A stretch of DNA of 51,691 nt, taken from the sequence record OZ346160.1. The stretch is one strand, 5' to 3'. This DNA is from a phage. The translations under genes and the position numbers were made by a program. Positions 1 to 51,691 of this stretch are shown piece after piece (within the stretch, counting starts at the first letter, position 1; every line of letters starts with the position of its first letter). The notes beneath the pieces were generated by a model that did not search any database, had not been told where the DNA came from, and worked only from the letters and a program-made list of their open reading frames with translations.

Positions 1-1569
1 ATGATCATATGGGAAGATTTGACGGCGGCGCAAAAGCGAGCCATTAAAGAAATCAGTGAGCATTCATTCGAAAAGATGATCAGAATCTGGTTCCAATTAT
101 TGCAGGGGCAGAAATTCCAGAGCAACTGGCATTTTAGCTTATTGTGCAGTGAGGTAGAGAAGATCATCAATGGAGAGTCGCAGAATGTGATTTTCAACAT
201 TACGCCAGGTAGCGGCAAGACTGAGATTTTCTCGATCCACATGTCACCCTACGCGTCATTGAAAAGCCGGAAAGTGAGAAACCTTAACCTTTCGTTTAGT
301 GATGGCCTTGTCCAGCAAAACAGCAACCGGATAAAGGAGATTATCGGTTCTCCTGAGTGGCAAGAGCTATGGCCTGGAAAACTGGCAAAGGCGAGCGCTA
401 AAGATCTGATAGTCACCGAAGGCGGCAAGGTTAAATTGCAAGTTAACTCACGTTCTATTGGCGGCCAGGTAACAGGTTTGCGTGGCGGCTATATGGATGA
501 TGGTTTTACTGGTATGCTGGTTCTTGACGATCCAGACAAGCCGGATGATATGCTTTCTAAGGTCAAGCGCGAGGCTATTCACATGCGGTTAAAAAACACA
601 GTGCGATCGCGTCGAATGAAAGACACCACGCCAATTGTTATGGTGCAACAGCGACTACACGTTAATGATTCCACCTGGTTCATGCTTAATGGCGGGATGG
701 GTGGTATTGAGTTTAAAGTCGTGAGCATTCCGGCGCTGGTTACGAAAGAATACCGCGAAACGCTTCCTGATTGGTTGAAGCCTGAATTTGATCGTGATGT
801 GCTGTCAAGTAAGCCAGTGATGATAGATGGCGTCGCTCATTATTCATTTTGGCCTGCGAAGGAAAGCGCGGAGGAGTTGCTTGCATTGCGCAATGCAGAT
901 CCTTACACGTTTGCCAGTCAATACCAACAGCAACCAATCGCGCTTGGCGGGAACGTGTTTAAAACAGAGTGGTTCCAGTATTACGGCAGCGGCGAAAAGT
1001 GCGCACTACCAAAACCGGATCGCTTTGAATACACATTTATTACTGGAGATACCGCGCAGAAGGCCGGAGAGCTTAACGACTATTCAGTTTTTTGTTATTG
1101 GGGGATGTATAAGAATCGCGTTTACTTCATTGATGGCATTCGCGGAAAGTGGGAAGCGCCGGATCTTGAATTAAATTTTATTGCCTTCGTTAACCAGTGC
1201 TGGAAGCGCAATAAGGAGTGTGGCAGCTTGCGACGTATCCACATTGAGGATAAGGCCAGCGGCACTGGTTTGATTCAGGGGGCCAAAAAGAAGATCCCGA
1301 TTGATATAAATCCCGTTCAGCGAAGCAATGACAAGGTAACGCGAGCAATGGACGCCGCGCCAGTGATGAGGGCCGGACGTGTGGCGCTGCCAGAAAATCA
1401 CCCCATGCTGCCTGAGATACTGGCAGAGGTTGCAGCATTCACTTTTGATGATTCTCATCCCCATGATGATATTGTCGATAATATAGTTGATGCTGTTAAC
1501 GTCGAAATGAACTTGGCAGATGATCCGGTGGCAAGGATGAAAAAGCTGGCTGGTCTACGCAATAAATAG
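1..1569 (+). CDS. terL: terminase large subunit
   Basis: 522-aa ORF beginning at base 1, directly upstream of portal gene; size and position fit a packaging ATPase/nuclease; family call from recall, no search. Confidence 0.75.
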   Translation: MIIWEDLTAAQKRAIKEISEHSFEKMIRIWFQLLQGQKFQSNWHFSLLCSEVEKIINGESQNVIFNITPGSGKTEIFSIHMSPYASLKSRKVRNLNLSFSDGLVQQNSNRIKEIIGSPEWQELWPGKLAKASAKDLIVTEGGKVKLQVNSRSIGGQVTGLRGGYMDDGFTGMLVLDDPDKPDDMLSKVKREAIHMRLKNTVRSRRMKDTTPIVMVQQRLHVNDSTWFMLNGGMGGIEFKVVSIPALVTKEYRETLPDWLKPEFDRDVLSSKPVMIDGVAHYSFWPAKESAEELLALRNADPYTFASQYQQQPIALGGNVFKTEWFQYYGSGEKCALPKPDRFEYTFITGDTAQKAGELNDYSVFCYWGMYKNRVYFIDGIRGKWEAPDLELNFIAFVNQCWKRNKECGSLRRIHIEDKASGTGLIQGAKKKIPIDINPVQRSNDKVTRAMDAAPVMRAGRVALPENHPMLPEILAEVAAFTFDDSHPHDDIVDNIVDAVNVEMNLADDPVARMKKLAGLRNK

Positions 1570-1595
1570 CACTAATTGCTAAAAAGTTATATAAT
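1565..1595 (+). promoter_or_regulatory. conserved intergenic cassette copy (variant AATAGCACTAATTGCTAAAAAG + TATAAT)
   Basis: Motif overlaps terL stop TAG; TATAAT at 1590..1595; followed by hairpin and T-run. Confidence 0.5.
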
Positions 1596-1596
1596 C

Positions 1597-1625
1597 AAGG
1601 CTGGATTTTTCCAGCCTTTTTTATT
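1597..1625 (+). terminator. rho-independent terminator/attenuator between terL and portal
   Basis: AAGGCTGG-attttt-CCAGCCTT followed by T-run. Confidence 0.55.
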
Positions 1626-1639
1626 ATGGAGATTTGACG

Positions 1640-2932
1640 ATGAGTGAAAAAACAAGGCTAGTTAAGGCCGATGGATACAACGAGATTTTCAAGGGCAGCA
1701 AGGGCAATGGGCGTGTGGAGTTGCCTTTCTTTATGCAAGGGTTCGAATACACCACGCACGCTGATTTTTACATTCGCGACGGCCTAGCAAAACGAATCAT
1801 CGACGTTGTTCCAGAAGAAATGGTGACGCCTGGATTTAATATTGACGGCGTGGAAGACGAGGAAAGTTTTAGATCTTTGTGGGATGAGAAGCGACTAAAC
1901 GATAAAATCATTGATGCGCTTTGCTGGTCGCGTCTTTTTGGTGGCGCTGCAATCGTGGCAATCGTTCAGGATGGCAGGGCATTAAAGTCACCTGTAGCGC
2001 CTGGTGCAATCCTTGAAGATGTTCGCGTTTACGATCGCTTTCAGGTTCGCGTAGAAAAGCGAGAAACCAATCCGCGCAAGGTGCGATATGGTGAGCCATT
2101 GATTTACACCATTACACCTGGTGCTGACCTGCCAGAATACCAGGTTCACTATTCGCGAGTCTGTATTATCGACGGTGAGCGGCTACCAAATCAGCGACGT
2201 CAGTCAAATGATGGTTGGGGTGAGTCGATCCTGAATAAGCGACTTGTTGAGGCCATTTGTGATTATAACTACTGCGAAAACTTAGCAACTCAATTGTTGC
2301 GACGTAAGCAACAGGCGGTATGGAAAGCTAAAGGTCTTGCTGATCTTTGTGATGATGATGATGGTGTTAACGCCGCACGTTTGCGCCTTGCTCAAGTTGA
2401 TGATGAGGGTGGAGTTGGCCGTGCGATCGGCATTGATGCGGAAGATGAGGAATATGATGTTTTAAATTCTGATATTTCCGGCGTCGATTCATTTCTGGAA
2501 AAGAAGATGGATCGCATTGTATCTCTTTCCGGTATCCATGAAATCATCCTCAAAAACAAGAACGTTGGCGGTGTTAGCGCGAGCCAAAACACGGCGCTTG
2601 AAACCTTCTACAAGCTGATCGACAGAAAGCGAAAGGAAGAATACAAACCAATCCTTGAATTTCTGATCCCGTTCCTGATTCAAGAACAAGAATGGAGTAT
2701 TCAGTTTGCGCCGTTAAGCGTTCCAAGCGAAAAGGACCAGGCCGAGATCTTGAACAAGAATATTGATTCTTTGAGCAAGGCTATTGACGGTCAATTCATG
2801 GATACAGAGGAGGCGCGCGACACATTGCGAGCCATTGCGCCTAACGTTAAACTAAAAGACGGCAATAACATTAAATTACCTGAGCAGGACGTAGAGCCGG
2901 AGCCAGGAGCAACCGAGGGTAGCAATCAATGA
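1640..2932 (+). CDS. portal protein
   Basis: 430-aa ORF after terL; GGAG RBS about 8 nt upstream of ATG at 1640 (track start 1634 is a TTG); stop overlaps next start (ATGA). Confidence 0.75.
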   Translation: MSEKTRLVKADGYNEIFKGSKGNGRVELPFFMQGFEYTTHADFYIRDGLAKRIIDVVPEEMVTPGFNIDGVEDEESFRSLWDEKRLNDKIIDALCWSRLFGGAAIVAIVQDGRALKSPVAPGAILEDVRVYDRFQVRVEKRETNPRKVRYGEPLIYTITPGADLPEYQVHYSRVCIIDGERLPNQRRQSNDGWGESILNKRLVEAICDYNYCENLATQLLRRKQQAVWKAKGLADLCDDDDGVNAARLRLAQVDDEGGVGRAIGIDAEDEEYDVLNSDISGVDSFLEKKMDRIVSLSGIHEIILKNKNVGGVSASQNTALETFYKLIDRKRKEEYKPILEFLIPFLIQEQEWSIQFAPLSVPSEKDQAEILNKNIDSLSKAIDGQFMDTEEARDTLRAIAPNVKLKDGNNIKLPEQDVEPEPGATEGSNQ

Positions 2933-3684
2933 TAGTGAAAGGCGTCGTTAAACAATGGCGCTTTCCTGAAGCAAGCGAGCGGCAATTGCGCCGCTCAATT
3001 CAGGAGGCGATAAGGGATCTTGTTGTGCTGATGCGCAGCAAAACAAAGGAAATGAAATTTGACGCGGACACCGAAGAAATCAACGCCGCAGAGGATGAGA
3101 TTAGTAGCTTCGCGTTAAAGCTAATAGCTGGCATCGCCGCATCACTTCCGGCTATCGGCCTTGCTGTTTATAAATTCAACGCAAAGCAATTTATTAACGT
3201 AGCGAAATCAACGGGAGGTAAGTCAAATTCCGCTGTTATCATTCTTATGGCTATTGGGGCCAATGCGAATGAGAGTTGGTATAGGACGCTATACGGTCAA
3301 TGGCATGACATGACGATCGCATCTCTTCAAAAGCTATTTGGAAACATCGTGTCTGACTGGTCAACCAATATTAGATCGGCAAACTTTCGCGGAATGAGAG
3401 ATAGTCAGGTTAATGAATTGGCTGGTAAGAGATTTGCAGTGTATAGCTCTTGGGGTAAGACAAGGGCTGAAAATATCATAGGCGCTTGGAATAGTAGACT
3501 CATGCGCCAGCGTCTTTATGATGCAAAAGTAACTCATTATTTTTGGCATGGTATGCTTGATGACAGAGAACGATTGCAGCATGTACAATGGGAGGGTAAG
3601 CGCATTGCGCTAGATTCTGAACATGATTTTCCTGGTGAGCCTTTCGGTTGTCGTTGTTGGGCCATACCAGATTGGAACAGTTAA
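2929..3684 (+). CDS. minor head / head morphogenesis protein
   Basis: 251 aa, translationally coupled to portal; position between portal and scaffold. Confidence 0.5.
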   Translation: MIVKGVVKQWRFPEASERQLRRSIQEAIRDLVVLMRSKTKEMKFDADTEEINAAEDEISSFALKLIAGIAASLPAIGLAVYKFNAKQFINVAKSTGGKSNSAVIILMAIGANANESWYRTLYGQWHDMTIASLQKLFGNIVSDWSTNIRSANFRGMRDSQVNELAGKRFAVYSSWGKTRAENIIGAWNSRLMRQRLYDAKVTHYFWHGMLDDRERLQHVQWEGKRIALDSEHDFPGEPFGCRCWAIPDWNS

Positions 3685-5362: not shown

Positions 5363-6376
5363 ATGGCTTATGAAAATTTAATGCTGAACTATGCATGTCC
5401 TGGCAATCTCTCTGATACTTCAACCTATAACATTGATGGCGCTTGTGTTGCTCAAGGTGATATTGAGTTTGGATCAGCGGTTCGGGTTGTCGGAATAGTG
5501 GATGGAATGAGGGTTGTGACGGCGCTTTCTGATGGTGAAACTCCTTACGGCATCGCTTTTCGTTCACAATATGAGCACCTGAGCGGTAAAATTCTCGACG
5601 GAGAGGTGTGTAACGTCGTTTCTCACGGTCGGGTGTGGGCGCTTACTTCTCTTAGTGAAGCCCCGAAATCATTCTCAAAACTAAAAATCGGTGTTGGAGG
5701 AGTAGTAACTGGCGTAGATGATTATGTTGGCTGGACCTTTGCTGGTGGCTTTGTTAAGCACGAAGACGGTCACATTATTGAGGTTCAGGTGAAGCAAAAT
5801 GCTCTCATCGTTCCACCCCCTCCGCCTCCTGTGGTGCTGGTAGAGTCTGCAACAATTAACACTGACAAGGAGAGTCCGCAGCCAAACAATGCTCCCGTAA
5901 AATGCAGTATCACAGTAGAGCCTGGCAACGCCACCGATAAAACTGGTGTTTGGTCTGTTGATGCTGTAAACATTGCGACTATTGATGCCGATACCGGTAT
6001 TCTAACTCCTGTTGGTGGTGATGCATTCGGTAGTGTAAACGTAAGTTGGACGGCTAACGATGCAAGCAAGACTAAGGCCACGATTGTTTATCAATTCGAA
6101 AAAGCTGTTGTTAGCGTCGCTAGTGCAACCGTAAGCCTTGAGAAAAATTCTGCAATTGTTGGTGAAACCGTTCAGGCGAGCGTTGTCGTTGCTCCAGAAG
6201 ATGCTACCAATAAATCCGGTTCTTGGTCTTTGTCAAGTGGTGATTTTGCATCTGTAGATCCTGGTACTGGACTAGTAACTACTATCGCCGCTGGCGAGGT
6301 TGATGTTATCTGGACCGCTGCTGATGGTTCTGGCGTTAAAGGTCAGCAAAGACTAACCATTACCGATCCTGAATAA
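5363..6376 (+). CDS. head decoration-like protein with poly-Pro linker and two Ig-like (Big_2-type) C-terminal domains
   Basis: Start taken at MAYENL (GGAG RBS 9 nt upstream); N-terminal domain paralogous to 4823..5302; PPPPPP linker; two similar repeats of about 90 aa rich in T/S/V. Confidence 0.5.
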   Translation: MAYENLMLNYACPGNLSDTSTYNIDGACVAQGDIEFGSAVRVVGIVDGMRVVTALSDGETPYGIAFRSQYEHLSGKILDGEVCNVVSHGRVWALTSLSEAPKSFSKLKIGVGGVVTGVDDYVGWTFAGGFVKHEDGHIIEVQVKQNALIVPPPPPPVVLVESATINTDKESPQPNNAPVKCSITVEPGNATDKTGVWSVDAVNIATIDADTGILTPVGGDAFGSVNVSWTANDASKTKATIVYQFEKAVVSVASATVSLEKNSAIVGETVQASVVVAPEDATNKSGSWSLSSGDFASVDPGTGLVTTIAAGEVDVIWTAADGSGVKGQQRLTITDPE

Positions 6377-6395
6377 CATAAAAACGCTTTGACGC

Positions 6396-6414
6396 TTTAA
6401 CAAAAAGTGCTATC
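6396..6414 (+). promoter_or_regulatory. conserved motif, inverted orientation, embedded in sigma70-like promoter upstream of major capsid gene
   Basis: TTTAACAAAAAGTGCTAT lies between TTGACG (6388..6393) and TATCAT (6410..6415), 16-nt spacer. Confidence 0.45.
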
Positions 6415-6457
6415 ATCTAGGCCGTTACATTTAACGGCCTTTTATGGAGGAAACAAA

Positions 6458-7429
6458 ATGGCTAAAAAATACGATGAATTAGATGCTACTATTGTAGCAA
6501 ATCATTTGCAGATTCAGGGTGTTAAGTCCGACGCTTCTGATATGGGTATTTGGACCGCTCAAGAGCTACACAAGATCCGCTCTAACGCATACGAGAAAGA
6601 GTATCCGGCAGGTTCCGCGCTTCGCGTATTCCCTGTAACAAACGAGCTTTCTGATACTGACAAGACTTTCGAATATCAGACTTTTGATAAGGTTGGCTAC
6701 GCGAAAATTATCGCCGACTACACCGATGATCTGCCAACTGTGGACGCGCTGATGACTTCTGAGTTTGGCAAAGTGTTCCGCCTGGGTAACGCTTATCTGA
6801 TCTCCATTGATGAGATTAAAGCAGGTCAGCGAACTGGCAAGAGCCTGTCAACTCGCAAGGCTAACGCTGCGCAAAATGCGCATGATCAGATGATTAACTT
6901 CCTGGTGTTCAAAGGTTCCAAGCCTCATAAGATCGTTTCCGTTTTCGATCATCCTAACCTTACGAAAATTGCATCCAAAGGCTGGATGAGCAATGACGGC
7001 AATACCAAGTTCCCACAGGTAGCAAGCGATGAACTGGAGGCTGCAATCGAAACGATCGAGGAAGTGACCAAAGGCCAGCACCGCGCGACCAACATCCTGA
7101 TCCCGCCGTCCATGCGTAAAGTCCTAACGGTTCGAATGGAAAATACCACTGAAAGTTATCTTGAATACTTTCAGAAGCAAAACGGCGGTATCACTATCGA
7201 CTCTATCGCAGAGCTTGAGGATATTGACGGCAAAGGTACGAAAGGTTGCTTGGTTTACGAAAAAGATCCAATGAACATGAGCATTGAGATTCCAGAAGCG
7301 TTTAACATGCTTCCGGCGCAGCCAAAAGACCTGCATTTCAAGGTTCCTTGCACTTCCAAGTGTACTGGCCTTACGATTTATCGTCCGTTTACGATGGTGC
7401 TTATTACTGGCTTGAAAAAAGCTGAGTAA
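6458..7429 (+). CDS. major capsid protein
   Basis: 323 aa from MAKKYDELD with GGAGG RBS; follows scaffold and decoration genes; strong terminator downstream. Confidence 0.7.
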   Translation: MAKKYDELDATIVANHLQIQGVKSDASDMGIWTAQELHKIRSNAYEKEYPAGSALRVFPVTNELSDTDKTFEYQTFDKVGYAKIIADYTDDLPTVDALMTSEFGKVFRLGNAYLISIDEIKAGQRTGKSLSTRKANAAQNAHDQMINFLVFKGSKPHKIVSVFDHPNLTKIASKGWMSNDGNTKFPQVASDELEAAIETIEEVTKGQHRATNILIPPSMRKVLTVRMENTTESYLEYFQKQNGGITIDSIAELEDIDGKGTKGCLVYEKDPMNMSIEIPEAFNMLPAQPKDLHFKVPCTSKCTGLTIYRPFTMVLITGLKKAE

Positions 7430-7440
7430 TTAGATAACAT

Positions 7441-7468
7441 GGGGAGCCTTAAGGGTTCCCCTTTTTTA
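7441..7468 (+). terminator. rho-independent terminator after major capsid gene
   Basis: GGGGAGCC-ttaa-GGGTTCCCC followed by TTTTTTA. Confidence 0.6.
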
Positions 7469-7485
7469 TTTATGGAGTACACAAA

Positions 7486-7752
7486 ATGAGCAAAAATTTA
7501 AAACTTAAAGTAACTGGCGTTTGCATGATTATTATGGACGGTAAGCGTTATCATCCTGGTGATGAAATTGAAATTGAATCTGAACGCATTAATGATTCCG
7601 CAGTTGAATACCTGATCGCTCGCGGTGATGTGGAAGTTAAAGACAATTCCGAAATTAACGAGCAAATCAAGGCGAAAGCGGAGAAGAAGCGCAAAAAAGA
7701 TCCTACCGAGGGTAAGAGCCGCAAAGAGCTAGAGGACGGCGGCGAATATTAA
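7486..7752 (+). CDS. hypothetical protein (head module)
   Basis: 88-aa ORF with GGAG RBS; lysine-rich C-terminus. Confidence 0.45.
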
Positions 7753-8218: not shown

Positions 8219-8586
8219 ACTACAATGAGATTGCAAGAATGGCTACGGCTGGGATTAACTTTTTCAGCGACGCTAACGGTATGTTTAAGTGCATCACGCA
8301 GCAGGGAGGGGTTGAGATTATCGGAGGAGAGGAAGTTACCAAGCCGGAGATTTCAGTGATGATAAAGGGGCTTGTTAGATCTCCGAGGACTAGAGAGGTT
8401 GACGGTGAAACAATCCGAGTAACCGACAAGTTGGGGATATTCACCAATGAAACTGAGATCAAAAATGGTTATCAGATTGAAATTGATGGCGAACGTTATG
8501 TTGTCGTTGAAGCAAGACCAGTCAGGCAGACTAACATCACGGCGGCTTATCGTCCGATATTAAGGAGGATTGCTGTGCATGGCTGA
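8206..8586 (+). CDS. head closure / head-tail joining protein (putative)
   Basis: 126 aa; overlaps neighbours in coupled arrangement. Confidence 0.4.
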
Positions 8587-9022
8587 TAATTATAAGATCA
8601 GGGAATTTCACGGTGATATAAGCAGGTGGATTGATTCAGTAAGCAGCGGCCTTGTTGATTGCGTTGAAATGTTCGCGACAAACGTCCACGAGGATCTTGT
8701 AAATCGCTCGCCAGTTGATACGGGCCGATATAAAGCCAACTGGCAGATAACAGCAAACAAGCCGCCGCTATATGCGCTCAACCAATACGATCGCGATGGT
8801 AGTAAAACCATTGCAGAAGGCAAGCGAGCAATATATGCAATCATGCGTGGCGGTGGCGCGGTGCGGTCAATCTATTTTTCAAACATGCTCATTTACGCCA
8901 ACGCGCTTGAATACGGTCATTCAAAACAAGCGCCGTCCGGCGTACTTGGAATCGTGGCGGTAAAGCTGCGATCTTATATGGCTAAGGCAATAAAGGATTC
9001 GAGGGCAAAAAATGCACTATGA
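8579..9022 (+). CDS. tail component, HK97 gp10-like (putative)
   Basis: Start taken at MADNYK; size and position typical. Confidence 0.4.
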   Translation: MADNYKIREFHGDISRWIDSVSSGLVDCVEMFATNVHEDLVNRSPVDTGRYKANWQITANKPPLYALNQYDRDGSKTIAEGKRAIYAIMRGGGAVRSIYFSNMLIYANALEYGHSKQAPSGVLGIVAVKLRSYMAKAIKDSRAKNAL

Positions 9023-10106: not shown

Positions 10107-10145
10107 TTCCTGTAAAATCAATCTATCAAATAAATCAATTCCACT

Positions 10146-10164
10146 TTTAACAAAAAGTGCTATA
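10146..10164 (+). promoter_or_regulatory. conserved motif, inverted orientation, upstream of tail chaperone/tape measure operon
   Basis: TTTTAACAAAAAGTGCTAT immediately followed by AAGGAG RBS and ATG 10178. Confidence 0.45.
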
Positions 10165-10495: not shown

Positions 10496-10812
10496 AGCGG
10501 GCGGTTTACCTGTTTTACCTCAAGCCGCCAACTGACGCACAATTAGAGGCCGTCGGCCTATCCCGTTCAGACTACGAAGGGGAGGATCCGCCGGAGGTAA
10601 TTTTTGATGAATCAATGTTTCAATCTTGGGATCTGTTTTGCGCTATGCAGACGCAATGGAGATCGACTAGCGGCAGCGTGTATGGGTTCGACTATAACGT
10701 TTTGCCTATGCTTTTTGACATTTACAAGATTGAGGATCGGGAGATGGCGCTAAATGATTTGCGCATCATGGAACAAAAGGCGCTAGAAATGATTCATTCA
10801 AACAAAACATAA
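10178..10812 (+). CDS. tail assembly chaperone frameshift product (GT-like, -1 PRF)
   Basis: -1 frame is open from the slippery heptamer A_AAA_AAC (about 10486..10492) to the stop at 10810..10812; canonical arrangement upstream of tape measure. Confidence 0.5.
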
Positions 10813-30249: not shown

Positions 30250-30668
30250 TGGCTATAACTGATAAAGGAGATTATCTTGAGTTTTACGAAAGGGATCCAA
30301 CCGACACGAGAAGGGAAGTTAATCACCAGATAGATAGTTTTCAGTGGTTGACTTATGCTCATCCTTATTTGCTGGCGTGGCATACGGTAAACGAGAATGA
30401 GAAGTCTAAAGCAACGGCGATGATTGATCAGCAGTCCGGCTTGGTTAAGGGAGTAAGCGATTTCATCATCCTGATTGGTTTAAACGGAAAATACCCCTTT
30501 GCAGCGATTGAGATCAAACGAGTGAATAAATCAGGCAAGGGGAAAGCATCACCAGTCAGCGATGAACAAAAGGCTTTTTTGCGTCGCGTTCGCAGCTTAG
30601 GAGGATTCGCTGCGGTAGCCTACGGATTCAATCAGTTTAAGTTGGCTATTGAATACATGCTTAAATAG
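30249..30668 (+). CDS. VRR-NUC family nuclease
   Basis: 139 aa; PD-(D/E)xK signature GVSDFIIL..AIEIKR; start overlaps helicase stop (TAATG). Confidence 0.55.
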   Translation: MAITDKGDYLEFYERDPTDTRREVNHQIDSFQWLTYAHPYLLAWHTVNENEKSKATAMIDQQSGLVKGVSDFIILIGLNGKYPFAAIEIKRVNKSGKGKASPVSDEQKAFLRRVRSLGGFAAVAYGFNQFKLAIEYMLK

Positions 30669-30708
30669 CACTTTTTGTTAAAACTGGCGCGATGGATTGC
30701 GCCATAAT
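30664..30708 (+). promoter_or_regulatory. cassette copy upstream of Dam methylase
   Basis: AATAGCACTTTTTGTTAAAAC overlapping upstream stop TAG; hairpin GGCGC..GCGCC; CATAAT at 30703..30708. Confidence 0.55.
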
Positions 30709-31478: not shown

Positions 31479-31736
31479 ATGGAAAAAGAGAGAAGCGTTT
31501 ATTTAAATGAAACTGGCGAGTGGTTGTTATTTCGCGCTATGGTGTGCGATGCACTTGATAAAAACCCTAACGTGAAAAAGATGATTGATTGCGATCCGTG
31601 GGAATTTTCAAGCGCATTAGATATGAGCTTTGAGGAGACAAGAAAACTCCCGCTTGAAAAATGGCACGAACAAATCAGAAATGACATGCAAGAGTTTGTT
31701 GATTCGTGGAATTTTCAGCACGGAATGATCCACTAA
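31479..31736 (+). CDS. hypothetical protein
   Basis: 85-aa ORF; stop codon embedded in cassette motif. Confidence 0.45.
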   Translation: MEKERSVYLNETGEWLLFRAMVCDALDKNPNVKKMIDCDPWEFSSALDMSFEETRKLPLEKWHEQIRNDMQEFVDSWNFQHGMIH

Positions 31737-31779
31737 TAGCACTTTTTGTTAAAACGCCCGGCCTAGTGTCGGGCATAAT
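31735..31779 (+). promoter_or_regulatory. cassette copy
   Basis: Consensus motif overlapping stop; hairpin GCCCGG..CGGGC; CATAAT at 31774..31779. Confidence 0.55.
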
Positions 31780-41789: not shown

Positions 41790-41834
41790 ACTATACCAGG
41801 TTATCCCGATCAGCTTTTAACAAAAAGTGCTATT
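41790..41834 (-). promoter_or_regulatory. cassette copy
   Basis: Consensus motif overlapping stop; hairpin GGGATAAC..GTTATCCC; TATAGT at 40-45. Confidence 0.55.
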
Positions 41835-42136
41835 TATTGTTTTGCGTGGCGCTCAATGTAAGCGCGGATAGTTTCAGCGGTGTCTTTCGCAGATCCAAAC
41901 GTGCCCTTTACATGGCGAGCGTCGCGGTAAGCCTGGAAGAATTTACGCGCGATATTTGCAAACATTGCACCAGTAACGCGAGCGTCGCCAAAATTTGTTT
42001 CAATGGCATTGCTGATGCCGTCCTGGAATTCATGCTCAGTCATGAACAGTTCAGCCATTTCTGCGGTTTCGAACAGGTCAGCCAGTGCTGCCATATTCTC
42101 GTGGTCTTTAGCGGTGAACAGGTTCATGTTAATCAT
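41834..42136 (-). CDS. hypothetical protein
   Basis: 100-aa ORF; first gene of - strand array, downstream of cassette 42177..42221. Confidence 0.5.
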   Translation of the reverse strand: MINMNLFTAKDHENMAALADLFETAEMAELFMTEHEFQDGISNAIETNFGDARVTGAMFANIARKFFQAYRDARHVKGTFGSAKDTAETIRAYIERHAKQ

Positions 42137-42176
42137 TGTTTGGTCCTCAGTAAGTGCGGTTCGTTTCGATGTGTGT

Positions 42177-42221
42177 AATGTACCCGATCAGGTGGCCTGA
42201 GTTTTAACAAAAAGTGCTATT
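42177..42221 (-). promoter_or_regulatory. cassette copy (first of - strand array)
   Basis: Consensus motif; TACATT at 40-45. Confidence 0.5.
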
Positions 42222-42251
42222 TGACGGTTATCGCCAGGATTGCGATCGAAA

Positions 42252-42339
42252 TAATCAAAAGCAATCATTCGTAATCAAATCACGTCAAAATGATGATTGC
42301 CTTTGCAAATTTGATGAGAAAAGTAATCACGCTTAATCA
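42252..42339. repeat. TAATCA iteron array with 10-bp periodicity
   Basis: TAATCA/CAATCA at 42252, 42262, 42272, inverted TGATTG at 42294, TAATCA at 42324 and 42334. Confidence 0.45.
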
Positions 42340-42499
42340 TTGGTTGCAGGGGAGATAGTGAAACCCTCCCCTCTTGCCTCACTTTTCCGCCTGGCTGTCA
42401 GTGGTTGTTATGTTACGTTCCCGCGTGTTCTTTTGTTGACCTTCCGCAAAATACGATAACAAAAAATAACAAACAATACCTATATAATACATTGAAAAA

Positions 42500-42770
42500 T
42501 AAGGATTATTTATTTATATGTATCTATATATTCTCTTTTGTTATCTTGGTTATTGTGGTATTTGGTGGGGGTATATAGTTTTTGTGTATCTATATGTGTG
42601 TATGGGTATGTAGGGGCATATATATCTATATGGCACTTTCCGCGAGAAAACTTCGATAACAAGCAATGATAACATTGATTTATAAGGAAAAATAACGCCC
42701 ATATTGTTATTGTGCCACCATATAAAATTGATAAAACACGCGGGAACAAGAAAAAACAGTTGACACATTA
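42500..42770. repeat. AT/TG-rich regulatory region, paralogue B
   Basis: Diverged direct repeat of 21490..21700; internal direct repeat TTCCGC..GATAACAA (about 42450..42680). Confidence 0.5.
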
Positions 42771-42788
42771 AATAGCATTATTGATAAT
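42760..42788 (+). promoter_or_regulatory. sigma70 promoter (start of + strand small-gene array)
   Basis: TTGACA (42760..42765) - 17 nt - GATAAT (42783..42788); AGGAGG RBS and ATG 42817 follow. Confidence 0.6.
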
Positions 42789-42816
42789 GCCCACACCTAA
42801 CAACCAGGAGGAAGAA

Positions 42817-43281
42817 ATGAGCGAGCAATCATTCACTGACACGCTGCGCCGTGCCGCTATTATGCTGGCTAATGGCGAGGAAGAGACGATCAAGATTCCT
42901 GACGCGTATTTGCAGGTCCACATGTTCGGCAAGAAGTCGGCAAGCAATCCGGCGGCCTACATTCGCCAGATCATGAGTCGAGTGCCAGAAGTCGCCGAGC
43001 GGGGGCGCGTATCCGTTACCCGTGGCGTTTACGGGCCGGAAGATGAAAACTTCGGTAGCACTTTCTACGAGGTAAGGATTGTTGAAGGCCGTCGCAAGGT
43101 TTACAACAAAGAGGCACTGGAAAGGGCAGTACGCCAGGCTAAGCGCAAGGTTGCAGAGGCGATCATTGATATGTCACCCAACCTGGCAAACTATGCGCCG
43201 GAAGAGTATGAAACATTATCAAAGGCCGTCGCTGACTTTCACGCGATGATCAAAAAAACTTTCCTGGAGGATGAGCAATGA
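42817..43281 (+). CDS. hypothetical protein
   Basis: Start MSEQSF with AGGAGG RBS; first gene after consensus sigma70 promoter. Confidence 0.5.
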   Translation: MSEQSFTDTLRRAAIMLANGEEETIKIPDAYLQVHMFGKKSASNPAAYIRQIMSRVPEVAERGRVSVTRGVYGPEDENFGSTFYEVRIVEGRRKVYNKEALERAVRQAKRKVAEAIIDMSPNLANYAPEEYETLSKAVADFHAMIKKTFLEDEQ

Positions 43282-43550
43282 AAAAGGCGTTAATCGGCGT
43301 TTTGGCGGCAATGGCATTCCTGACCGGATGCAAAGAAGATGGCGCGCATGTTGGCAATGTGCAGATGGCTAACCCTGGCGATGACTACAGCGTAAGGGAG
43401 CTATTCACCGCCGATGGTTGCACTGTTTACCGATTCTATGACGGTCGCACTGTTTACTTCACCAACTGCAAGGGCACTACTAGCTGGGAAGTGTCGAAAA
43501 GCAATGGCAAAGGCACGAAGACAGAACATATGACCGTCGAGACAAAATAG
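43278..43550 (+). CDS. small lipoprotein
   Basis: 90 aa; signal peptide with lipobox FLTGC; coupled (ATGA) to upstream gene. Confidence 0.55.
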   Translation: MKKALIGVLAAMAFLTGCKEDGAHVGNVQMANPGDDYSVRELFTADGCTVYRFYDGRTVYFTNCKGTTSWEVSKSNGKGTKTEHMTVETK

Positions 43551-43590
43551 CACTTTTTGTTAAAACGCCAGGCGCAAAGCCTGGCATAAT
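43546..43590 (+). promoter_or_regulatory. cassette copy
   Basis: Consensus motif overlapping stop; perfect hairpin GCCAGGC-gcaaa-GCCTGGC; CATAAT 43585..43590. Confidence 0.55.
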
Positions 43591-48749: not shown

Positions 48750-49040
48750 ATGGCAAACAAAACTTACCGCAAACTACTGGTTAACGCTTTTGAAAACATC
48801 GCGCAGTCTAACAAGTGGAACGACTCTAAACACTCGCCAGTCACAATGAAGCGCGCCGGATTCAAAAATGCTCGTTCATGGGCGCGAGCTTTCGCAGCTT
48901 GCTATATGCCGGATGGTGGGCTAGGAACGATGAACGATTTTTTGATCAACATGATAGAGGAAGCGGCGCGAGAGGATCGACCGCTGACACAGCGAGATTT
49001 TGACGACTTCGCGCGCGATGAGCTTTACTATCTGAGCTAA
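48750..49040 (+). CDS. hypothetical protein
   Basis: 96-aa ORF; stop embedded in cassette motif. Confidence 0.45.
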   Translation: MANKTYRKLLVNAFENIAQSNKWNDSKHSPVTMKRAGFKNARSWARAFAACYMPDGGLGTMNDFLINMIEEAAREDRPLTQRDFDDFARDELYYLS

Positions 49041-49083
49041 TAGCACTTTTTGTTAAAACTTCCGCAAGGGCATTTGATAAAGT
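49039..49083 (+). promoter_or_regulatory. cassette copy
   Basis: Consensus motif after stop TAA; hairpin AAGGGCA..TGCCCTT with GATAAA in loop. Confidence 0.5.
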
Positions 49084-50489: not shown

Positions 50490-50723
50490 ATGATTAAATA
50501 CAAATTAACCGTTTCTTTCCGTGATACCGTTATTCATCCTTTCCTCAAGAGCTTTGTTAAATGCTTTACGGTAGAAGTTACAGAGGATCAGCTAGACGGT
50601 GACGAAACTTGCATTTCTATCGGCAATGTTGCTTATCCGATTCACAACATTACCAGCATTAAGCGTGAGGTTGTCGCTGATGAATTACAAAGTAAAGATG
50701 ACGATCCGGCGAATGGGGCGTAA
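50490..50723 (+). CDS. hypothetical protein
   Basis: 77-aa ORF. Confidence 0.4.
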   Translation: MIKYKLTVSFRDTVIHPFLKSFVKCFTVEVTEDQLDGDETCISIGNVAYPIHNITSIKREVVADELQSKDDDPANGA

Positions 50724-50865
50724 TTGCCAATCATGCAAACAGGAATATGAATGCGTAGTTGATGCTCTTGATGAACTGGAAGCAGTAGCAAAAGCAAAAG
50801 AGCAATCGGGCGCTAATCCTGAAACACATCAATTTTCAATTAACCTTGTGAGGGCTTTACAATGA
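50680..50865 (+). CDS. hypothetical protein (Cys-containing)
   Basis: Start ambiguous (50680/50698/50713) within track ORF 50599..50865; overlaps previous gene. Confidence 0.3.
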   Translation: MNYKVKMTIRRMGRNCQSCKQEYECVVDALDELEAVAKAKEQSGANPETHQFSINLVRALQ

Positions 50866-51086
50866 TCGCATTATCTTTCTGCATTGGTTTTATCATGGCT
50901 ATCATTATCTTTTCCGTTGTCATGCGCTTTGCTTATAAGTTCGTGATTAATAAAGGTTGGTACGCTTCTGCCATCTGGAGCGAAAAACAAAAGAAATGGC
51001 TTGTCCGTGGTCAATACCTGATGATCGGTAGCAAGATCCTAAATTCCATTCGAGCCAAAGATGGGAAAGTAAAATATACAGCTTAA
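50862..51086 (+). CDS. small membrane protein
   Basis: 74 aa with N-terminal TM segment; strong terminator downstream. Confidence 0.4.
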   Translation: MIALSFCIGFIMAIIIFSVVMRFAYKFVINKGWYASAIWSEKQKKWLVRGQYLMIGSKILNSIRAKDGKVKYTA

Positions 51087-51118
51087 AAATCACCCGCCGC
51101 ACGGCGGGTTTTTTATTG
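51087..51118 (+). terminator. rho-independent terminator before terS promoter
   Basis: ACCCGCCG-cac-GGCGGGT followed by TTTTTTATT. Confidence 0.65.
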
Positions 51119-51127
51119 CCCGTTGTT

Positions 51128-51136
51128 TGGTATAAT
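51128..51136 (+). promoter_or_regulatory. extended -10 promoter upstream of terS
   Basis: TGgTATAAT immediately downstream of strong terminator, 30 nt upstream of ATG 51165. Confidence 0.45.
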
Positions 51137-51164
51137 CAGGCATCTAACCAAAGGAGGATTAACA

Positions 51165-51691
51165 ATGGCTAAAAACGTTGAGCCTGCTGTAAAGGCATTA
51201 AATTTCAAAGAGTTATATAATAAAACCTATGGCGATATTGTTACGCTAAACAACCGCCACAAGTACACGCCGGAACAGGTTTTTGATATGGCGATCCGCT
51301 ATTTTACGTGGGCCGAAGAGAATCACATCCAGGCGGCTGAAACAGCTTCCTTTCAGGGTGACGTGTACGAGAGCAGAGTTTACAAGCCTCGCGTTTTCAC
51401 GGTTAACGGATTCAGCTTGTATCTCGGCGTTACTGAGGCGGCTGTAAGCAAATGGCGTAAAGAGCCTGGATTCTGCGATGTGATGGAGTTTGTTGATAAA
51501 GTAATTTACGAGCAAAAATTCCAGCTTGCGGCAAATAACATGATTAACGCTGGATTTATCGGTAAAGAGATCGGAGTAGAGAAGCCAGCAACAGTGAGCG
51601 TTGAAGCGAGCGCGGCAGCTAATGCAAGCATTGACGCAGTAACTGCCGATGAGGTGAAAGAGGCTGTGATTGATATTCTGGAGCAACTTTA
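51165..51691 (+). CDS. terS: terminase small subunit (3'-partial in linear window; completes with base 1)
   Basis: ATG with AAGGAGG RBS; not in ORF track because no stop inside window; final TA plus base 1 A gives TAA overlapping terL ATG; precedes terL. Confidence 0.6.
   Translation, partial: MAKNVEPAVKALNFKELYNKTYGDIVTLNNRHKYTPEQVFDMAIRYFTWAEENHIQAAETASFQGDVYESRVYKPRVFTVNGFSLYLGVTEAAVSKWRKEPGFCDVMEFVDKVIYEQKFQLAANNMINAGFIGKEIGVEKPATVSVEASAAANASIDAVTADEVKEAVIDILEQL

What the first reader, a model, noticed from the sequence alone, without database searches (positions are those of the whole stretch)
51165..51691. Window ends join into a TAATG stop-start overlap: closed genome linearised at terS/terL
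The terS reading frame runs to the last base with two leftover nucleotides TA; adding base 1 (A of the terL ATG) creates TAA. This overlap is the hallmark of translationally coupled terminase genes. The window is therefore one complete genome permutation, and features near either end should be read as contiguous.
Basis: seen in the sequence. Interest (0 to 1): 0.5.

Follow-up and report, generated by a model that had tools for sequence, protein, structure and literature searches.

The report
Phage genome cut at terminase genes
The window is the complete genome of a T1-like E. coli phage written out so that it starts at the first base of the large terminase gene; this cuts the last base off the small terminase gene's stop codon, an ordinary bookkeeping artefact rather than a biological end.

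Summary
An ORF from 51165 runs 175 codons to the last base and leaves TA. Base 1, the A of an ATG, completes TAA, giving ...CAACTTTAATGATC.

The two genes are a P22-gp3-type small terminase (terS) and a large terminase (terL). The joined junction occurs uninterrupted, at the same length, inside at least 110 independently deposited phage genomes and several metagenome contigs. So nothing is missing between base 51691 and base 1.

The window is a Warwickvirus (Drexlerviridae, T1-like) unit genome rotated to start at terL. That is the Pharokka/Dnaapler convention, and several Citizen Phage Library records are cut identically. In NorthRox, terS is annotated only as a misc_feature.

Two caveats apply:
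- **The overlap is not terminase-specific.** This genome has about 17 other stop-start overlaps. Relatives range from a 4-nt overlap to a 27-nt gap (T1 +24, TLS +11), or carry an HNH endonuclease gene between terS and terL. terL also has its own GGAG ribosome-binding site, so translational coupling is plausible but unproven.
- **The physical ends lie elsewhere.** T1 and TLS package by headful from a pac site 8.4–8.8 kb upstream of terS. The syntenic region here is about 42.15–42.41 kb.

Ordinary and already known.

The parts
51092..51115 (+). Intrinsic terminator ending the upstream early-gene unit (stem ACCCGCCG/CGGCGGGT followed by a T run)
   Evidence: 7 pairs, 6 of them G-C, loop of 4, T-rich tail. 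T1 has a terminator in the same position, 8322-8344.
51128..51136 (+). Extended -10-like element TGgTATAAT ahead of terS (read by eye; no good -35)
   Evidence: Sequence. The two-hexamer scan did not call a promoter here, so this part is inferred only.
51151..51157 (+). Shine-Dalgarno AAGGAGG for terS, 7 nt before the ATG
   Evidence: Sequence.
51165..51691 (+). terS (small terminase, 175 aa): 175 codons plus the TA of its stop codon. The final A of the stop is window base 1.
   Evidence: Pfam PF16677 GP3_package scores 43.5 bits against a cut-off of 29.4. phrog_606 'terminase small subunit' at 2e-53. PDB 3P9A, P22 gp3, at 1.7e-15.
51680..51683 (+). GGAG Shine-Dalgarno for terL, inside the 3' end of terS, 8 nt before ATG(1)
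   Evidence: Sequence. It is conserved as GGAG in the relatives that have the TAATG junction.
1..3 (+). ATG of terL. Its A is shared with the terS stop (TA|A), giving TAATG across the window ends.
1..1569 (+). terL (large terminase, 522 aa). Walker A is P69-GSGKT74, Walker B is M172-LVLDD177, and the C-terminal domain is an RNaseH-like nuclease.
   Evidence: translation. Pfam Terminase_6C at 7e-11. phrog_38 at 5e-107.
1597..1626 (+). Intrinsic terminator closing the terS-terL unit
   Evidence: 9 pairs plus a T run. T1 has one at 10545-10573, after its terL.
42156..42409 (.). Conserved non-coding block in the divergent intergenic region (42137-42817). This is the candidate location of the real packaging start (pac). 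It lies outside the finding's coordinates.
   Evidence: It is syntenic with position 1 of the T1 and TLS records. It is 95.7-98.8% conserved in the Warwickvirus records listed, even where the flanks diverge. It holds the genome-wide densest AATCA/TGATT cluster, at 42252-42371. This is an inference, not a demonstration.

Best explanation
The window is the complete, non-redundant unit genome (51,691 bp) of a virulent T1-like coliphage of the genus Warwickvirus (Drexlerviridae, Tempevirinae). A circularly closing assembly was rotated so that base 1 is the A of the terL start codon.

In this phage the terS stop and the terL start share that A (TAATG). The rotation therefore leaves terS open at the 3' end of the record, one base short of its stop codon.

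Biologically, terS and terL form a two-gene unit between two intrinsic terminators. A ribosome finishing terS at UAA sits on the terL AUG, and a GGAG lies 8 nt upstream. terL can therefore be translated by re-initiation, by direct initiation, or by both; this step is inferred, not shown.

The virion DNA does not end here. By homology with T1 and TLS, packaging starts at a pac site in the large divergent intergenic region about 8.8 kb upstream of terS (about 42.15-42.41 kb). It then proceeds rightwards through terS/terL by headfuls, giving terminally redundant and partially permuted molecules. This step is also inferred.
For: Junction:
- The ORF geometry is as described.
- Both proteins are terminase subunits.
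- The joined junction is contiguous with no indel in at least 110 phage records and in IMG/VR contigs L006-L008.
- tiwna annotates terS 5633..6160 and terL 6160..7728, a 1-nt overlap.

Completeness:
- The window is collinear with all of T1 around the circle.
- It is collinear with NorthRox from base 1 to the last base.

Convention:
- NorthRox, MikeNSara, ExeQuayColi, MartyMcPhage, Tuinin and tunus OR912983 align from record position 1 and/or to their last base in the same way. In NorthRox terS is annotated as a misc_feature.
- Pharokka and Dnaapler reorient phage genomes to start at terL.

Operon: terminators at 51092-51109 and 1597-1618 flank the pair, as in T1.

Packaging:
- The TerS is of the P22 gp3 type.
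- The T1 record starts at the terminal repeat (repeat_region 1..2800) with terS at 8396.
- The TLS record starts at its assigned pac with terS at 8792, and headful packaging was shown experimentally.
- The SU57 and KanT1 papers state that T1-like phages are headful packagers without fixed ends.
Against: - No reads are available, so circular closure, terminal redundancy and the pac position are not shown for this phage itself.
- No record in the collection is 99% or more identical over its full length, so the depositor's method is unknown.
- The pac motif cluster (AATCA/TGATT) was chosen after looking at the sequences. It is not the top-ranked cluster in most of 14 more distant loci.
- The T1 headful (48.8+2.8 kb) is no larger than this unit genome, so the amount of redundancy here is uncertain.
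- Translational coupling is untested. The junction RNA shows no structure that would make terL depend on terS translation (z = -0.06).
Confidence: 0.93

Rival explanations
1. The window ends are true physical ends of the virion DNA (a cos or exact-terminal-repeat genome whose ends happen to fall between terS and terL).
For: Some phages do have cos or pac sites in or next to terS. A P22-pac-like octamer, GAAGATTT, lies at window 13-20.
Against: - A natural end exactly one base inside a stop codon and at the first base of a start codon is what a reorientation tool produces, and sister records share it.
- The octamer occurs 3 times against 3.56 expected.
- T1 and TLS, the two experimentally mapped relatives, have their pac 8.4-8.8 kb upstream of terS.
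- Other assemblies of relatives break at unrelated places.
- SU57 showed no cos ends.
Confidence: 0.02
2. The match of the ends is coincidental or the assembly is incomplete: some sequence is missing between 51691 and 1, or the contig is a fragment.
For: No reads are available. The exact record is not in the collection searched.
Against: - The junction string is identical, and the 1400-nt alignment has equal length, in many independent isolates and metagenome contigs.
- TerS ends at its natural C-terminus and TerL starts at residue 1 in all relatives.
- The gene order is the full T1 gene order.
Confidence: 0.01
3. On the mechanism only: the TAATG overlap is plain genome compaction. terL is translated independently from its own GGAG site, and no functional coupling to terS exists.
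For: - GGAG lies 8 nt before the ATG.
- No RNA structure sequesters it.
- There are at least 8 other credible 1-nt overlaps and at least 9 four-nt overlaps elsewhere in the genome.
- Relatives tolerate gaps of +1 to +27 nt, and even an HNH_3/AP2 endonuclease gene between the two. T1 has +24 and TLS +11.
Against: - The overlap and the GGAG are conserved across Warwickvirus and a group with about 72% TerS identity.
- Most relatives keep the genes within -4 to +27 nt.
- From general knowledge, termination-reinitiation at such overlaps is common in phage operons.
Confidence: 0.45

Closest known systems
Warwickvirus genomes (tiwna MN850643, tonijn, NorthRox OR896823, MikeNSara OR896827 and others)
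   Same: Identity is 96-99% across the junction, with the same TAATG terS/terL overlap and the same gene order. The Citizen Phage Library records are linearised at exactly the same base.
   Different: No record is 99% or more identical over its full length. Coverage-times-identity of about 0.9 suggests a distinct strain or species within the genus. Most other records are linearised at arbitrary positions.
Coliphage T1 (NC_005833), ST54 terS / ST53 terL and pac
   Same: The same terminator-terS-terL-terminator unit, followed by portal. TerS is 54% and TerL 65% identical. The whole genome is collinear.
   Different: In T1 the two genes are separated by 24 nt with no overlap. The T1 record starts at the terminal repeat and pac, 8.4 kb upstream of terS, not at terL.
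Phage TLS (AY308796), Tempevirinae
   Same: The same subfamily. Pac-initiated headful packaging of 3-4 headfuls was shown by restriction analysis. pac lies 8.8 kb upstream of terS in the divergent intergenic region.
   Different: There is an 11-nt gap between terS and terL. TerS is only about 51% identical.
Salmonella phage P22 gp3/gp2 terminase (PDB 3P9A)
   Same: The TerS belongs to the gp3 family (Pfam PF16677; PDB hit 1.7e-15). P22 is the archetype of pac/headful packaging.
   Different: In P22 the pac site lies inside gene 3 (general knowledge; also referred to). In T1 and TLS, and by inference here, it is kilobases away. No P22-like pac sequence is enriched here. The TerL has no sequence match to any solved structure.
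Pharokka/Dnaapler 'start at terL' reorientation
   Same: It produces records whose first base is the terL start codon, exactly as in the window.
   Different: It is a software convention, not a biological feature. Where the upstream gene overlaps terL, it truncates that gene, as seen in NorthRox.

Membership tests
Small terminase, P22 gp3 family (PF16677) | Sequence match above the curated Pfam threshold | tested here: met
   43.5 bits against a cut-off of 29.4, residues 33-132. phrog_606 at 2e-53. PDB 3P9A at 1.7e-15.
Small terminase, P22 gp3 family (PF16677) | Oligomeric ring that binds pac DNA | not testable with these tools
   No structure prediction or binding assay was run. This is inferred from homology only.
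Large terminase (ATPase + RNaseH-like nuclease) | Walker A and Walker B motifs in the N-terminal domain, and a Terminase_6C nuclease domain | tested here: met
   P69-GSGKT74 and M172-LVLDD177 are seen in the translation. PF17289 scores 42.8 bits against a cut-off of 22.6. phrog_38 at 5e-107.
Genus Warwickvirus (Drexlerviridae, Tempevirinae) | High nucleotide identity over most of the genome to recognised members (the ICTV genus level of about 70% or more is from general knowledge) | tested here: met
   86-97% of each 25-kb half is covered at 95.6-98.3% identity by Warwickvirus records.
Circularly closing (complete) unit genome | The end-to-start junction is contiguous in independent assemblies, with no indel | tested here: met
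Circularly closing (complete) unit genome | Reads span the junction at even coverage | not testable with these tools
   No reads are available.
pac-type headful packaging (T1/TLS/P22 style) | Terminal redundancy, partial circular permutation and a sub-molar pac fragment | not testable with these tools
   Shown only for the relatives TLS and T1. SU57 also shows permutation and no cos ends.
pac-type headful packaging (T1/TLS/P22 style) | An identifiable pac region syntenic with that of T1 and TLS | tested here: inconclusive
   The syntenic 680-nt intergenic region is 42137-42817, with a conserved 254-nt core. The AATCA/TGATT cluster is the genome-wide maximum here, in T1 and in TLS at their position 1. 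It is not top-ranked in most of the more distant loci.
Translationally coupled gene pair | The stop codon of the upstream gene overlaps or abuts the start codon of the downstream gene | tested here: met
   TAATG. It is conserved in the genus and in a sister group.
Translationally coupled gene pair | The downstream start lacks an independent or accessible ribosome-binding site (dependence on upstream translation) | tested here: not met
   GGAG lies 8 nt upstream. No significant local RNA structure, z = -0.06.
Translationally coupled gene pair | Downstream expression falls when upstream translation is blocked | not testable with these tools
   This needs reporter experiments.

The most novel reading that the evidence does not exclude
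The conserved non-coding block at about 42.16-42.41 kb could be the pac site of Warwickvirus. It carries 7 AATCA/TGATT copies and an ATGATGATTG motif that also lies a few bases from position 1 of the TLS record, with ATGATGAGAT at the matching spot in T1. On this reading a P22-gp3-type TerS recognises a repeat array 8.8 kb away from its own gene. That would give T1-family pac sites, so far only roughly mapped, a sequence definition. The terS/terL junction itself holds nothing new.
Probability: 0.35. Interest if true: 0.25.

Novelty: already known. Interest (0 to 1): 0.07.

Why it matters
The value is mainly practical.
- **Annotation loss.** Anyone annotating or scanning this record as a linear molecule will lose terS. 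In the sister record NorthRox it is annotated only as a misc_feature. The terminase operon, with its terminator, promoter-like element and ribosome-binding sites, will also be split across the two ends.
- **Not virion termini.** The record ends must not be taken as physical ends. For a T1-like headful packager the real first cut is expected about 8.8 kb upstream of terS, and transduction or packaging analyses should use that position.
- **No new biology.** Nothing here changes what is known about terminases.

Tried and rejected
- **P22-like pac sequence at the start of terL.** GAAGATTT at 13-20 occurs 3 times in the window against 3.56 expected. This is chance.
- **RNA structure at the junction that would enforce coupling.** MFE -23.6 against a shuffle mean of -23.4, z = -0.06. 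None found.
- **Known RNA families around the junction.** In the contiguous relative L035, only sub-threshold hits with E of 0.2 or more. None found.
- **The 146-aa antisense ORF 51246..51686 inside terS.** It is open only in near-identical relatives and broken in most others, at 59-109 aa. Spurious.
- **Nucleotide similarity between the window's intergenic region and the T1/TLS pac regions.** Only short matches of 9-19 nt. Synteny and motif content had to be used instead.
- **AATCA/TGATT clustering as a family-wide pac signature.** Across 14 loci with about 8-10 kb of upstream sequence it is top-ranked only in the two close relatives and roughly placed in two more. It is therefore kept only as a lead.
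- **TerL against solved structures by sequence.** No hit, so there is no terminase-phylogeny argument beyond family membership.
- **Publication for phage XY3.** Its circular record is cut inside the candidate pac block. No paper describing its termini was found.

Full report
**Observation.** The last 527 bases of the window (51165-51691) are an ATG-initiated frame of 175 sense codons followed by the two bases TA. Base 1 is the A of an ATG that opens a 522-codon ORF, 1-1569. Joined, the sequence reads ...GGAGCAACTTTAATGATC. In the upstream frame the first codon after residue 175 is TAA, followed by TGA. The other two frames of the last 600 nt are full of stops. In the downstream frame the nearest stop is 6 codons before base 1 with no alternative start in between, so ATG(1) is the first possible start. 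No terminal duplication is left in the window, since the longest prefix equal to a suffix is 1 nt.

**Identity of the two genes.**
- The 175-aa protein matches Pfam PF16677 (DNA-packaging protein gp3) at 43.5 bits against a cut-off of 29.4, and phrog_606 'terminase small subunit' at 2e-53.
- It also matches the solved P22 gp3 small terminase, 3P9A, at 1.7e-15.
- The 522-aa protein matches the Terminase_6C nuclease domain and phrog_38 'terminase large subunit' at 5e-107. It shows Walker A (PGSGKT, 69-74) and Walker B (MLVLDD, 172-177) in its translation. It has no sequence match among solved structures.
- The next gene, 1640-2932, is a portal.

**Are the ends really contiguous?** I joined the last 700 and first 700 bases and searched the phage collection.
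- 126 records match. In 110 of them one place covers at least 80% of the query, and each of the 40 rows listed covers all 1400 nt in a single piece.
- The matches lie at internal and mutually unrelated positions of the records. An example is tiwna 5460-6859, 1400 nt for 1400 nt at 99.0%.
- tiwna annotates terS 5633..6160 and terL 6160..7728, the same one-base overlap.
- Three IMG/VR contigs cross the junction at 95-98.5% identity.
- The 32-nt junction string is identical in L006, L007 and tiwna.
- T1 TerS aligns to the very last residue of the window's TerS. TerL alignments start at residue 1, or 2 in a few distant loci, in every relative whose terL start could be read cleanly.

Nothing is therefore missing or duplicated between 51691 and 1.

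**What the window is.** The best matches are Warwickvirus genomes (Drexlerviridae, Tempevirinae), T1-like virulent coliphages. Each 25-kb half is covered 86-97% at 95.6-98.3% identity, with no record 99% or more identical over its full length. The window is collinear with the whole T1 genome around the circle. It is thus a complete unit-length genome.

**Why it is cut here.** Several Citizen Phage Library records (NorthRox, MikeNSara, ExeQuayColi, MartyMcPhage, Tuinin, tunus OR912983) align to the window from their base 1 and/or to their last base, so they are linearised in the same way. In NorthRox the small terminase is not a CDS but a 'misc_feature similar to terminase small subunit' at 50612..51136 of a 51138-nt record. 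That is consistent with the missing stop-codon base. Pharokka's terL mode and Dnaapler reorient phage genomes so that terL is the first CDS. The window's ends are the expected product of that convention applied to a phage whose terS stop overlaps the terL start.

**Is the overlap a terminase hallmark?** Not specifically.
- Between credible neighbouring genes on the coding strand, this genome has at least 8 other one-base overlaps. Examples are 14711, 30249, 33794, 39478, 39759, 41482 and 45303.
- It also has at least 9 ATGA-type four-base overlaps, among roughly 85-95 genes.
- Cutting at the first base of a randomly chosen gene would therefore clip the neighbour's stop codon in about one case in five.

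Across 30 T1-like loci the terS/terL geometry varies:

| Geometry | Where it occurs |
|---|---|
| TAATG, 1-nt overlap | Warwickvirus, a group with about 72% TerS identity, and L015/L016 |
| ATGA, 4-nt overlap | L018, L028, L029 |
| Gaps of 1-2 nt | six loci |
| Gap of 11 nt | TLS |
| Gap of 24 nt | T1 |
| Gap of 27 nt | L031 |
| 535-558-nt spacers carrying a 162-180-aa HNH_3+AP2 homing-endonuclease ORF | L021, L026, L027 |

Close juxtaposition is therefore usual, but the overlap is not required.

**Mechanism at the junction.**
- terS-terL is a two-gene unit between an intrinsic terminator at 51092-51109 and another at 1597-1618. T1 has the same layout.
- Ahead of terS lie a TGgTATAAT element (51128-51136, read by eye and not called by the scan) and an AAGGAGG site.
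- terL has GGAG 8 nt before its ATG, inside terS.
- The junction RNA folds no better than shuffles (z = -0.06), so nothing suggests that the terL site is masked until terS is translated.

The most likely picture is that terL is translated both by ribosomes that terminate at the terS UAA and re-initiate on the overlapping AUG, and by direct initiation at its own site. This is an inference. Dependence on terS translation was not tested, and one defining feature of strict coupling, the absence of an independent ribosome-binding site, is not met.

**Where the real ends probably are.**
- T1-like phages package by headful from a pac site, giving terminally redundant and partly permuted DNA. This was shown for TLS and is stated for T1-like phages in general.
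- The T1 record begins with its 2.8-kb terminal repeat and has terS at 8396.
- The TLS record begins at its assigned pac and has terS at 8792.
- In both, position 1 lies in the large intergenic region between the leftward and rightward early operons.
- By protein-level synteny the equivalent region here is 42137-42817. It lies between the minus-strand gene 41834-42136 and the plus-strand gene 42818-43281, which is 8.3-9.0 kb upstream of terS.
- Its core, 42156-42409, is conserved at 95.7-98.8% in the Warwickvirus records listed, even where both flanks differ. The circular XY3 record is cut inside it.
- The densest 120-nt cluster of AATCA/TGATT in the whole window is at 42252-42371, with 7 copies against a mean of 0.64. 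The corresponding genome-wide maxima in T1 and TLS straddle their position 1.
- ATGATGATTG (42290-42299) also lies a few bases before TLS position 1, and ATGATGAGAT lies at the equivalent spot in T1.

I picked this motif after seeing the sequences, and it is not the top cluster in most of 14 more distant loci. The synteny argument is therefore the solid one and the motif is only a lead.

**Other checks.** The P22-pac-like octamer at window 13-20 is at chance frequency. The 146-aa antisense ORF inside terS is not conserved. No Rfam family matches around the junction.

**Verdict.** The feature is an ordinary consequence of rotating a closed T1-like phage genome to start at terL. It is already known in kind and of low interest, beyond the practical warnings about the truncated terS and about not treating the record ends as virion ends.

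Noticed in passing
L021 2996-3557, L026 2987-3543, L027 514-1052 (IMG/VR T1-like contigs): In three relatives a 162-180-aa ORF with HNH_3 and AP2 domains (a homing-endonuclease type) is inserted between the terS stop and the terL start. The terS/terL junction therefore looks like an insertion hotspot for mobile endonucleases in this family.
   Followed up: partly
window, 20 sites, e.g. 1566-1584, 10145-10163, 30665-30683, 31736-31754, 41815-41833, 42202-42220, 43547-43565, 49040-49058: The 19-mer ATAGCACTTTTTGTTAAAA occurs 20 times with 3 or fewer mismatches, against 0.04 expected. It is almost always intergenic, and its TAG often serves as the stop codon of the upstream gene, including terL at 1567-1569. 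T1 and TLS carry the related TTAGCAAAAAATGCTAT. The TLS paper mentions 18 intergenic 21-mers. Its function was not examined here.
   Followed up: partly
window 42137-42817, core 42156-42409: A 680-nt non-coding, partly AT-rich divergent region has a 254-nt core conserved at 95.7-98.8% across Warwickvirus and the genome's densest AATCA/TGATT cluster. It is the candidate pac and early-promoter region, syntenic with position 1 of the T1 and TLS records.
   Followed up: partly
phage collection hits: Between 7 and 21 records named 'Campylobacter phage', with host given as Campylobacter jejuni, match this T1-like coliphage genome. Identity bands per organism were not shown. This is an unexpected host label for Drexlerviridae and possibly reflects coliphages isolated from Campylobacter-related samples.
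   Followed up: no
whole window (unit length 51,691 bp) compared with T1 (L004) and TLS: T1 packages about 48.8+2.8 = 51.6 kb, and TLS about 49.9 kb plus roughly 1 kb. This unit genome is already as long as the T1 headful, and some relatives reach 52.7 kb. Either the Warwickvirus head holds more DNA or the terminal redundancy is small.
   Followed up: no
L014 (IMGVR_UViG_2974632794_000001), terS region about 2501-3036: The terS reading frame appears interrupted near its 5' end by an in-frame stop or a small insertion, while the 3' end and the TAATG junction are intact. This could be a sequencing error, a pseudogene or a small insertion.
   Followed up: no
OR896823.1 (NorthRox) 50612-51136 = L001 313-837: In this public record, which is cut like the window, terS is annotated as a misc_feature rather than a CDS. 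The small terminase is therefore missing from the record's protein set.
   Followed up: yes
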